DNA from: Leucoraja erinacea | Lineage: Eukaryota | DNA length: 61,945 bases | Assembly (NCBI RefSeq): GCF_028641065.1 | Contig: NC_073410.1 | Span: forward strand, 11,658,056-11,720,000 | Reading direction: 5' to 3' | Shown here: one piece after another, positions 7,701 to 10,700 of the stretch | Layout of the letters: every line of letters starts with the position of its first letter | How positions within the stretch are numbered: position 1 is the stretch's first letter | Made by a program: the position numbers and the translations under genes | Notes under the pieces: model-generated | The model's database searches: none | The model's input: only the letters and a program-made list of their open reading frames with translations | Told to the model about the DNA's origin: nothing

Positions 7701-10700
7701 TGAAACGCTAATATTTCCTTCTGATATTGATTCTTCAATAACTGTAGGAGGCTAATTCTAACACTGCATCGTACTTTAGTTCCGCATGGACTACCTGAGC
7801 CATTGGCGATTACGTTATTTATGATTCGGCCCGGCATTGGTCTTGCACTTTGTATTTGGAGCATGTAACTAATTACCACTCACCTATAACCGCAGGAGGA
7901 TAAGATGCAACGAGTTGAGACATATGAGCGTATTAATGACACGGTATTGATATTGGAATATCAGATCCAATCGGCCATTAAAACATTAATTTTCTGTGCA
8001 GGAGAGTTGTAATCTAATCTATTCAACCCCCTTTCTTTAGTGAAAGGGTTTAACCTTCTTGCCGAGGTCACTGACTAGCTAAGCTAAGATTAATGATACT
8101 GCATTTCACTTTCAACTTGCTTGTCCCGTTTTGACTCCAGCATTATGTCCTTGTCAACACTTTAATGGTGCCCTGCTCCACTCCGTTCTGTCTTCGACAG
8201 CAGTTCTCCGACGTGCCGCTGAAAGAATCAGTGTGATTAATTGAAGGGAATGTAGTTCTACCCCGTGAATGATTGCGCACCTTTACCACAGCTGCCGAAA
8301 CCGAGCGCGTGTAAGTAGATGGTATCGGATCGAGGTTCCTGCTCAACTCTTATCTCCCTTTCAACAGGAGGTGCTCCATCTCCTACGGGGAGCTCCCCCT
8401 GAAGTCACCATGAGGATGTGCAGAACGGCACCAGGATTCCTGCCTGAAATCGACCCCCCCCCCCAAATCTTGGTAAATGCATCGTACTGTAGACTAATGA
8501 GTTGGGGGGGGGGGTATATGCGTAGACTGCATTAAAGACCAGGGTTCGATTCCCATTTCTCCAGCGACAAAGCTAATAGACAAAATGCTCTCCCCACTGC
8601 ACACAGGGACCTGAGCCTTATGTTTGAATGGACATTGGCCCCAGGACAGGCGGGGCAGACCTGGGACGCTCCCCCTGTGACCGCGTGGGTTTGCTCCAGT
8701 CGCTCCGGTTTCCTCCCACATATGTGTAGGATTGTAGGTTAATTGGTTTCTGTAATAATTGGCTCGTGTGTGTAGGTTAGAACGAGAATGCGGATCAATT
8801 TTGGTCTGCGCGGTTTTGCTGGGCCGAATGGCCTGTTTCAATGCTGTACCTCTAAAGAAAAAGCAAGGAGGCAGGACTAGTGAGATGTGACATCTTGGGC
8901 GGGAATGAGCCAGCTGGGCTGAAGGGCCTGTTTCCATGCTGGATGACTATTTGACGTGCAAGGCCAACAGCTACTGAACTCAGTGTTTAAGAAGGAACTG
9001 CAGATGCTGGAAAATCGATGGTAGACAAAAATGCTGGAGAAACTCAGCGGGTGCAGCAGCATCTATGGAGCGAAGGAAATAGGCAACGTTTCGGCCCGAA
9101 ACCGAAGGGTTTCGGCCCGAAATGTTGCCTATTTCCTTCGCTCCATAGATGCTGCTGCACCCGCTGAGTTTCTCCAGCATTTTTGTCTAGCTACTGACCT
9201 CATCCTCTTCCACAAATTGAGATGTAGTGGCATTGGTATCAACAGTTGAGTATGACAAAACTCCATATTCCTGGGTATCAAAGATAGACATCTCCCCCTA
9301 GAGTTTAACCTGCTTACGGTGGCTCAGCGGTAGAGTTGCTGCCTTACAGCGCCAGAGACCCGGGTTCGATCCTGACTATGGGTGCTTGACTGTAGGGAGT
9401 TTGTACGTTCTCCCCGTGACCTGCGTGGGTTTTCTCCGACATCTTCGGTTTCCTCCCACACTTCAAAGACGTACAGGTTTGCAGGTTAATTGGCTTGGTA
9501 TAAATGTTTAAAAAAATGTCCTTAATGTGTGTAGGATAGTGTTAATGTGCTTCTAAATCCCTCATCCAGTTTACTTCCTTCCAGGGCTAGGTTATATGGG
9601 CAAACTTTACAGCTGTGGAAATCCATTGACTTTTCTTTGTGATTGAGGTTATTCATGTATTTTGATGATGTTTTCACATGAGGAGTTACTGAGAGACATG
9701 CGTGTAATTCGAGTAAAGAGAGAGTACAGAGGAGATTTACTAGAATGTTGCCTGGGTTTCAGCAACTAAGTTACAGCGAAAGGTTGAACAAGTTAGGTCT
9801 TTATTCTTTGGAGTGCAGAAGGTTAAGGGGGGACTTGATAGAGGTCTTTAAAATGATGAGAGGGATAGACAGACTTGACGTGGATAAGCTTTTTCCATTG
9901 AGAGTAGGGAAGATTCAAACAAGAGGACATGATTTGAGAATTAAGGGACAGGAGGGGTAACATGAGGGGGAACTTCTCTACTCAGAGAGTGGTAGCTGTG
10001 TGGAATGAGCTCCCAGTGGAAGTGGTGGAGGCAGGTTCGATTTTATCATTTAAAAATAAATTGGATAGTTAAATGGACGGGAAAGGAATGGAGGGTTATG
10101 GTCTGAGTGCAGGTAGATGGGACTTGGTGAGAGTAAGTGTTCGGCACGGACTAGAAGGGCCGAGTTGGCCTGTTTCCGTGCTGTAATTGTTAATATGGTT
10201 ATGTGTTATATGGTAATTCTGGGCCATGAGCCATGAGCCTGTTCTAAATGTTAACACTGAACATCGACAAAGTTGCCCACTGTCCGCCTTTCCTTTTGAA
10301 ACGCCAGACTCCCATTGCATCGCCCATGAAAGAGTTGTCCGTGTTGAAGCCGCCCGAGCCGCAGTTGCCAGAGCTGCCAGCAGAGGGTGCTCCTCACCAG
10401 GGGGCAGAGGTTGGAGAATGGCCAAAAGGTCTCGGCTGGTCCCGAGACTCGGGCCATCACCAGCGGGGATTGGACACGGTCAACGAGGCCTCTGAACAGG
10501 AACAGCAATTCCAAGAGGTACCACTGGACGCCGCAAACTTGGAACTAGTCACTGCTCTTGCGGAAGACCTGAGGAAGAACTGCTACTCCGCCTGTGATGT
10601 ACCTGTTGCCCAGGCACAGGCAGAGAGGTGAGCATCATTTGTCTGGGGTAGCCTCAAATACCCACACAGCACTTCAACACCAGAGAAGCACGGTGTGGCT

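What the first reader, a model, noticed from the sequence alone, without database searches (positions are those of the whole stretch)
8983..9189. Self-complementary mini-elements inserted as single units with long TSDs
Seen: 130-210 bp insertions made only of the PLE terminal segment, mostly as two inverted copies, each flanked by its own direct repeat. Examples: 8983-9189 (73-bp arms, about 13-bp TSD), 20353-20506 (16 bp), 37227-37417 (14 bp), 48503-48700 (15 bp), 54704-54834 (15 bp), 55857-56059 (17 bp). The inversion junction differs between copies but falls at or near the hammerhead-like core. Established: PLE insertions often carry an inverted partial terminal repeat. Inference: each hairpin was made anew during integration (fold-back or template switch near a ribozyme-defined RNA end) rather than copied from one master MITE. 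That would amount to a ribozyme-bounded, non-coding, retrozyme-like mobile system.
Basis: partly seen in the sequence, partly recalled or inferred. Interest (0 to 1): 0.7.

Follow-up and report, generated by a model that had tools for sequence, protein, structure and literature searches.

The report
Stub Penelope insertions, two primed arms
These 130-230-base mirror-image inserts are real single insertions of the end piece of a Penelope-like jumping gene, likely built afresh at each landing from two short DNA copies primed on the two cut strands, and their breakpoints gather at the outer edge of the ribozyme motif rather than at its predicted cut site.

Summary
All six named loci exist and have 14-17-bp target duplications. 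For 48503-48700, three related species show the empty site. Five of the six are head-to-head hairpins. 54704-54834 is an inversion of non-overlapping pieces. The unit is the hammerhead-bearing 3' end of a Penelope-like element (PLE): four window copies carry the GIY-YIG C-terminus upstream. In tailed pairs one arm ends ~35 nt beyond the other, the known PLE 'tail' that marks two reverse-transcription start sites (Frangieh 2024). Centres differ in every copy, and 612 joints were listed in four runs, so there is no single MITE master. The ribozyme-cut idea fails: 24 of 43 5' ends lie at the motif's outer edge (h-7..+2), 0 within 2 nt of the cut, and RNA reads show no end pile. Best reading: both nicked strands prime short cDNAs that stop at the RNA's likely 5' end and are joined head to head. 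This is the known PLE architecture in minimal form, not a retrozyme. Why ends stop at the ribozyme edge is open.

The parts
8983..9188 (.). Head-to-head stub insertion, young subfamily A: long (tailed) arm 8983-9103 on minus, 5' end h10; short arm 9104-9188 on plus, 5' end h6
   Evidence: arms 79/81 identical
8969..8982 (+). Left target-site duplication (14 bp; right copy 9189-9202, 1 mismatch)
9189..9202 (+). Right target-site duplication
8983..9021 (-). ~35-40-nt 'tail' present on one arm only (between the two inferred RT start sites)
   Evidence: matches the tail definition in PMC3846280 and PMC11167929
20353..20506 (.). Head-to-head stub with internally deleted arms and reiterated filler; 16-bp TSD
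37227..37417 (.). Head-to-head stub, subfamily B; short arm from h6, long arm from h33; 14-bp TSD
48503..48700 (.). Head-to-head stub, subfamily A; long arm from ~h25, short arm from h-2; 15-bp TSD; empty site in three related species
48607..48638 (+). Minimal type-I hammerhead motif (CUGAAGA core 48609-48615, stem II, GAAA, predicted cut after 48636; GUU triplet in subfamily A, GUC in B/C)
   Evidence: cleavage untested; not the MFE fold as a monomer; no Rfam hit
54704..54834 (.). Twin-priming-type insertion: inverted h-2..~92 joined to tail only; 15-bp TSD
55857..56059 (.). Head-to-head stub, subfamily B; short arm from h-2, long arm from ~h17; 17-bp TSD
20059..20289 (.). Additional head-to-head stub, 14-bp TSD
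17988..18207 (.). Head-to-head stub joined inside the short palindrome around h-5..h4; no TSD found
20838..20974 (+). Single-arm stub (h-3 to tail end), 12-bp TSD
43730..43852 (-). Single-arm stub (h7 to tail end), 14-bp TSD
58684..59209 (.). Classical longer PLE form: inverted short arm 58684-58780 + GIY-YIG C-terminus (58810-58905) + 3' UTR + hammerhead + tail; no TSD found
11173..11752 (-). 5'-truncated PLE copy with decayed endonuclease end, UTR and hammerhead unit
49116..49488 (-). 5'-truncated PLE copy with endonuclease C-terminus, UTR and hammerhead unit
9..365 (-). 5'-truncated PLE copy with endonuclease C-terminus, UTR and hammerhead unit

Best explanation
These are the shortest insertion products of an endonuclease-bearing Penelope-like retrotransposon, each likely made anew when both nicked target strands prime short cDNAs that are then joined head to head. 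SHOWN: the unit is the PLE 3' end; the loci have 14-17-bp TSDs; one has an empty orthologous site; outer ends sit at two positions ~35 nt apart (h92-96 and h127-129); centres vary; inner ends pile at h-7..+2. FROM LITERATURE: a Poseidon PLE protein nicks and extends both strands, is predicted to be a dimer, starts reverse transcription at two internal sites that bracket the tail, and does not need ribozyme cleavage in vitro (PMC11167929). [quoted passage not shown] If the first cDNA is blocked at the second priming site, the tail-only inversion results (54704-54834). If one cDNA is long, the textbook inverted-pLTR copy results (58684-59209). If only one strand primes, a single-arm stub results.
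For: TSDs at 6 of 6 named loci. Empty site in 3 of 3 related species (table 8). A 32-aa window peptide is 74% identical to the C-terminus of a GIY-YIG protein, P0006 (Pfam E=0.002, below the curated cut-off), and tblastn places this C-terminus upstream of four units. Head-to-head 12 vs tail-to-tail 0. Loose-end piles in reads and contigs of other copies lie at 48501-48502 (tail end), at 48534-48537 and 48701 (short-arm end) and at 48607 (h-2), with mostly heterogeneous flanks (table 7). Of the 15 best-supported joints shown (of 612), 6 link an arm starting at h-3..-1 to a tailed arm broken at h83-103; 5 of these are tail-only. Arms are concordant by subfamily. TSDs are AT-rich: 67% of 150 bases vs 56% for the window, p=0.002.
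Against: No enzyme of this family was tested, and the in vitro data are for a lizard Poseidon element, while this family looks Neptune-like (inferred from one relative). 4 of 11 credible head-to-head pairs (4115, 10739, 17988, 34770) show no TSD. Arm-to-arm divergence equals between-copy divergence within a subfamily (e.g. 2/80 for both), so one template RNA and two cannot be told apart; in older hairpins the partner arm ranks only 2nd-26th nearest. The cause of the h-2..-5 pile-up is not shown: no RNA start pile was seen, and no TATA box was seen by eye in six UTRs. A few junction contigs have 27-91 times single-copy depth (the tool warns that depth is no copy number), so some hairpins may have been re-copied whole. 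5' ends were hand-curated and old copies are trimmed by the HMM. One of the 30 arm ends in the shown joints is at h30, next to the cut.
Confidence: 0.75

Rival explanations
1. A short non-coding RNA (~130 nt, starting at the ribozyme's outer edge) is a true non-autonomous, SINE-like parasite of the PLE machinery; the stubs are its full-length copies, and hairpins arise by the same double priming.
For: None of 10 subfamily-A arms in the window has upstream UTR. Loose ends at h-2 have low agreement (0.35-0.40), with no dominant UTR. Subfamilies exist. Non-autonomous PLE derivatives are known (PMC8557442 passages; bioRxiv 10.64898/2026.07.22.740005).
Against: B and C units occur both as stubs and behind endonuclease + UTR (6 UTR-bearing copies), and 58684-59209 shows both forms in one insertion. 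RNA reads are of both strands about equally, and 98% run on into unlike sequence, as expected for passive copies in host transcripts.
Confidence: 0.2
2. One reading: hammerhead self-cleavage defines the RNA end, and fold-back or template switching there makes the hairpin (retrozyme-like).
For: A minimal hammerhead consensus is present (89% of stem cells paired). Three window ends lie at h25-33, and one shown joint end is at h30.
Against: 0 of 43 ends at h27-31; 24 of 43 lie ~30 nt upstream and keep the whole motif, which a 3' cleavage product could not template. Stem I is 2 bp, there is no two-sided covariation, and the motif is not the MFE fold in 4 of 4 copies folded (stem II alone forms in 1). 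No tandem ribozyme-bearing units in the window. In the Anolis element, ribozyme mutants do not affect insertion (PMC11167929).
Confidence: 0.06
3. One cDNA folds back on local palindromes and copies itself (single priming, self-primed hairpin).
For: 17988-18207 is joined inside a short palindrome at h-5..h4. Several shown joints are near-symmetric (h53/49, h46/50, h37/33). Arkhipova 2013 inferred self-priming from palindromes at inverted junctions (PMC3846280 passage).
Against: It does not explain non-overlapping tail-only inversions (54704-54834; 5 of 15 shown joints), asymmetric junctions such as h25/h-2, or why the second arm ends at a site that matches the second in vitro RT start.
Confidence: 0.15
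4. An ordinary MITE with a fixed master, or two independent insertions side by side.
For: 7011-7215 is such a chance pair: its arms are of different subfamilies (20/90 different) and the left arm has its own 8-bp repeat. A few junctions may be multi-copy.
Against: Centres all differ, TSD length varies from 9 to 17, ends are asymmetric, one TSD spans both arms, and both arms are absent together in three species.
Confidence: 0.04

Closest known systems
EN+ Penelope-like element insertions with inverted pLTR, tail and TSD (Arkhipova et al. 2013, PMC3846280; Craig et al. 2021, PMC8557442; passages read)
   Same: Head-to-head inverted 5'-truncated partner, 30-40-bp tail on one end, palindrome or overlap at the inverted junction, TSD, hammerhead in the pLTR
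   Different: Here both partners are usually reduced to 60-130 nt with no ORF; TSDs are 9-17 bp (8-10 in the Adineta examples); a tail-only inversion type is common
Poseidon PAc of Anolis in vitro (Frangieh et al. 2024, PMC11167929; parts 1-2 of 4 of the main text read, supplements searched with no text hits)
   Same: Both strands nicked and extended; two internal RT starts bracketing the tail, a short distance 3' of the hammerhead; AT-rich targets; ribozyme cleavage dispensable
   Different: Different family (probably Neptune-like); the unit here has no start codon at stem II; the parts read do not describe the inverted stub products or the 5' stop at the ribozyme edge
Minimal hammerheads of metazoan PLEs (Cervera & de la Pena 2014, PMC4209133; parts 1-2 of 4 read)
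   Same: CUGANGA/GAAA core, extra base before stem II, G10.1-C11.1 pair, palindromic 15.2-16.2, mostly solo dispersed motifs; 'dual min-HHRs ~100-700 bp apart on opposite strands' already noted
   Different: Stem I only 2 bp (as in D. virilis); subfamily A has a GUU triplet; pairs here are 0-60 bp apart
Animal non-LTR retrozymes (Cervera & de la Pena 2020, PMC7229834, passages; Li et al. 2026 bioRxiv 10.64898/2026.07.22.740005, parts 1-3 of 5)
   Same: Non-coding, PLE-derived, hammerhead-bearing, 100-400 bp, TSDs longer than 4 bp
   Different: Retrozymes are head-to-tail tandem arrays with canonical ribozymes processed into circles; these are inverted pairs or solo stubs whose ends ignore the cut site
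L1 twin priming
   Same: Both target strands prime; 5'-inverted segment; microhomology or filler at the junction; 54704-54834 has the non-overlapping geometry
   Different: No poly(A) priming; fixed internal start sites; arms usually overlap, which implies two templates or strand displacement

Membership tests
EN+ Penelope-like element (terminal stubs) | Unit lies 3' of a GIY-YIG endonuclease C-terminus | tested here: met
   four copies; relative P0006 has the GIY-YIG match (E=0.002, under the curated cut-off)
EN+ Penelope-like element (terminal stubs) | Telomerase-like RT in the same ORF | tested here: inconclusive
   No RT remnant was identified in the window; searches for full-length relatives found none; no genome held
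EN+ Penelope-like element (terminal stubs) | Minimal hammerhead in the pLTR | tested here: met
   Consensus core and stems in 25 aligned copies; no two-sided covariation; activity untested
EN+ Penelope-like element (terminal stubs) | Inverted 5'-truncated partner, head to head | tested here: met
   12 head-to-head vs 0 tail-to-tail neighbours among 53 hits
EN+ Penelope-like element (terminal stubs) | 30-40-nt tail on one end | tested here: met
   Ends at h92-96 and h127-129 in the window and in loose-end piles
EN+ Penelope-like element (terminal stubs) | Variable-length TSD in AT-rich target | tested here: met
   11 TSDs of 9-17 bp, 67% AT
Neptune clade | Zn-finger-like linker between RT and EN | tested here: inconclusive
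   A Cys cluster precedes GIY-YIG in relative P0006; not seen in the window; no tree built
Animal non-LTR retrozyme | Head-to-tail tandem units, each with a hammerhead | tested here: not met
   Only 2 same-strand neighbour pairs (10837-11081), neither with a second ribozyme
Animal non-LTR retrozyme | Unit ends set by the cleavage site | tested here: not met
   0 of 43 ends at h27-31
Animal non-LTR retrozyme | Expressed as small linear or circular RNA | not testable with these tools
   Only an oligo-dT library was laid; it loses such RNAs
MITE (class II) | Fixed length and centre, symmetric TIRs, fixed short TSD (definition recalled) | tested here: not met
   Ten different centres, asymmetric ends, TSD 9-17 bp; 612 joints

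The most novel reading that the evidence does not exclude
The young subfamily is a ~130-nt non-coding RNA that begins at the hammerhead's outer edge and parasitises a PLE dimer. Most PLE insertions in this genome would then be 'strong-stop' cDNAs, analogous to the retroviral one: a hairpin is two such cDNAs joined, and a full PLE copy needs a template jump from that 5' end. This would give one mechanism for pLTRs, tails and inverted arms, with the ribozyme fold acting as a landmark rather than as scissors.
Probability: 0.2. Interest if true: 0.65.

Novelty: new variant of a known kind. Interest (0 to 1): 0.4.

Why it matters
How PLEs make their tandem and inverted structures is a stated open question (PMC8557442; PMC11167929 leaves the later steps unvalidated). 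These stubs are minimal and abundant (about 50 hits in 62 kb; 60,000-94,000 contigs laid per run), and some are young enough to have empty orthologous sites. They therefore give a natural record of nick stagger, both priming sites, cDNA stop points and joining. They argue against a role of ribozyme cleavage in integration and point to an unexplained stop at the ribozyme's 5' edge. In practice they would be mis-annotated as MITEs or SINEs.

Tried and rejected
No own genome was held, so no genome-wide count was possible. Rfam at gathering thresholds gave 0 matches; minimal hammerheads may fall below it. Pattern scans for more copies found 0 in metagenome, viral (27) and prokaryote (28) collections. 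Word-index protein searches for full-length relatives found none, and names for relatives could not be obtained, so the clade stays provisional. No RNA holder was listed (no evidence either way). Table 6 was empty; this is weak evidence because the library is oligo-dT and only ~5% of it was read. A fixed-window TSD scan missed several TSDs because the HMM overshot the short arms; it was redone with wider zones. Stem covariation gave no support beyond conservation. Table 5c joints with from>to were not used because their kind is not shown. Literature searches found no paper describing these stubs in cartilaginous fish, twin priming for PLEs or a strong-stop model; the library lacks most subscription papers and Repbase/Dfam. 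Rejected: MITE master, cleavage-defined ends, independent arms (true only of 7011-7215). The host was not identified; 'cartilaginous fish' rests on my recall of the repeat and peptide types.

Full report
Observation. The window holds a ~135-nt repeat unit in 53 hits at 38 loci; reversed and shuffled controls gave two weak hits in five runs. Read on its ribozyme strand, the unit starts at a CUGAAGA core (h1 = its C) and ends ~130 nt later. All six named loci exist and are flanked by 14-17-bp direct repeats with 0-1 mismatch that abut the element. A matched null gives such repeats in 0.5-1.5% of random window pairs. Head-to-head neighbours number 12 and tail-to-tail 0, against a null mean of 0.53. 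Corrections: the arms at 8983-9188 are 81-82 bp; 54704-54834 has no overlapping arms; 20353-20506 is internally deleted and has a filler.

Single-unit insertion. I laid contigs of three related species and one RNA run on 48200-48820. In each species one contig joins the left flank directly to the right flank, skipping 213, 215 and 223 bp; element plus one TSD is 213. Both arms are therefore absent together, and in the cleanest case the target is present once. Only this one locus could be tested.

What the unit is. Four copies (9-365, 11173-11752, 49116-49488, 58810-59209) carry an upstream pyrimidine-rich UTR and a decayed coding end. The 32-aa open stretch at 58810-58905 found 17 relatives. 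One of them, P0006 (74% identical there), has a GIY-YIG domain with the CCHH pattern and a Cys-rich linker, and tblastn with it recovers all four copies. The unit is thus the 3' terminal segment of an endonuclease-bearing PLE, probably Neptune-like (inference from one relative). The RT could not be found. The ribozyme fits the minimal type-I hammerhead of metazoan PLEs (PMC4209133): conserved core, 4-bp stem II with a G-C closing pair, extra base before it, palindromic ACGU, but only a 2-bp stem I. Pairing is 89%, with no two-sided covariation. It is not the minimum-energy fold of monomers and has no Rfam hit. Cleavage is untested.

Outer ends. In tailed pairs one arm ends at about h92-96 and the other at about h127-135. 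Reads and contigs from other genomic copies show loose-end piles at the same two positions, mostly with heterogeneous AT-rich flanks (table 7; 24 of 1,144 rows shown). This is the 30-40-nt PLE tail (PMC3846280, PMC8557442). Frangieh et al. showed that it is the interval between two internal RT start sites, used on both nicked strands (PMC11167929). TSDs are AT-rich, as in that study.

Inner ends. Ten centres are all different, including those of the two young subfamily-A1 hairpins. One search listed 612 joints, 15 of them shown. Arms within six TSD-flanked hairpins differ by 9.5% on average against 21.8% for random partners (p=5e-5), but they are not closer than other members of the same subfamily, so one or two template molecules cannot be distinguished. 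Of 45 hand-curated 5' ends of UTR-less arms, 43 lie in h-20..60: 24 at h-7..+2 (p=2e-12 against uniform), 3 at h25-33 (2.8 expected among the 18 ends downstream of h2) and 0 at h27-31. Six UTR-bearing copies were left out of this count. Old copies may be trimmed, and for monomers without a TSD the exact end is uncertain. Among the 15 shown joints, 6 join an arm starting at h-3..-1 to a tailed arm broken at h83-103; the other sense starts lie at h21-54; one arm end is at h30. The RNA run gave 12,822 laid reads, both strands about equal, 98% continuing into unlike sequence, and no pile of starts or ends. This fits passive copies in host transcripts but cannot exclude short RNAs.

Mechanism. I commit to double target-primed reverse transcription (confidence 0.75). 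Shown: TSD, empty site, two outer end positions, variable centres, pile-up at the ribozyme edge. Inferred: staggered nicks; one strand primes at the tail end and the other 35 nt upstream; the cDNAs run to a stop at h-2..-5 or break off earlier; they are joined by microhomology, by the short palindrome at h-5..h4 (17988-18207) or by filler (20353-20506). The same scheme gives the tail-only inversion (54704-54834), single-arm stubs with TSD (20838-20974, 43730-43852) and the textbook long form (58684-59209). The cause of the stop is open. [quoted passage not shown] For two monomers with exact TSDs the target repeat abuts h-4 or lies 2 nt from h-2, so the stop is real there and not an alignment artefact.

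Comparison and novelty. The architecture is that of known PLE insertions, and opposite-strand hammerhead pairs were noted in 2014. Membership of the non-LTR retrozymes fails on tandem organisation and on cleavage-defined ends; a MITE is excluded. What I did not find in print is the dominance of ORF-free double-primed stubs, the tail-only inversion class and the stop at the ribozyme's outer edge. Earlier AI notes on other genomes reached similar readings; my reading was stated before seeing them, and they are not counted as evidence. Supplementary figures of PMC11167929 are images and those of the bioRxiv preprint were not seen; either might show such stubs. Verdict: real, a minimal variant of a known kind, useful as a mechanistic readout; interest 0.4.

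Noticed in passing
window 7011-7215: False hairpin: arms from two subfamilies, the left arm with its own 8-bp direct repeat; two insertions at one AT-rich site.
   Followed up: yes
window 10739-11081: Complex locus: inverted truncated arm, pyrimidine filler, a deleted sense arm, then tandem tails and a subfamily-A fragment starting at h32.
   Followed up: partly
UTR-bearing copies at 9, 11173, 26614, 44435, 49116, 59082: The UTRs differ strongly, but all six end in YAG just before the ribozyme after a pyrimidine tract, like a retained-intron acceptor or an initiator (motifs recalled).
   Followed up: partly
window 17809-17895 (minus): Isolated fragment matching the linker/GIY part of the PLE endonuclease, ~90 bp from the 17988 hairpin.
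   Followed up: no
tables 5 and 5c: A few junction contigs have 27-91 times single-copy depth: recurrent hotspot junctions or hairpins re-copied whole.
   Followed up: no
loose end at 48536 in run X23: 490 RNA reads carry sense ribozyme sequence directly before an antisense short-arm end (agreement 0.55), suggesting a tail-to-tail or chimeric copy in an expressed transcript.
   Followed up: no
antisense strand of subfamily-B units, e.g. 55872-55938: Resembles a tRNA A box and B box ~42 nt apart (consensus recalled); weaker in subfamily A, so probably chance.
   Followed up: no
subfamily A, e.g. 48614-48649: GUU instead of GUC at the predicted cut, and a competing stem between h6-11 and h36-41 that is the MFE fold.
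   Followed up: partly
window 53133-53456 and 32834-33067: Other inverted-repeat-bounded elements (49- and 36-bp arms, ~90% complementary), possibly class II MITEs.
   Followed up: no
e.g. 9300-9540, 12028-12300; families D10-D18: Abundant tRNA-headed SINE-like and CR1-like LINE fragments resembling cartilaginous-fish HE1/HER1 (names recalled, not tested).
   Followed up: no
protein P0002: A GPCR gene model ending in this PLE endonuclease tail, probably a mis-annotation caused by an adjacent insertion.
   Followed up: no
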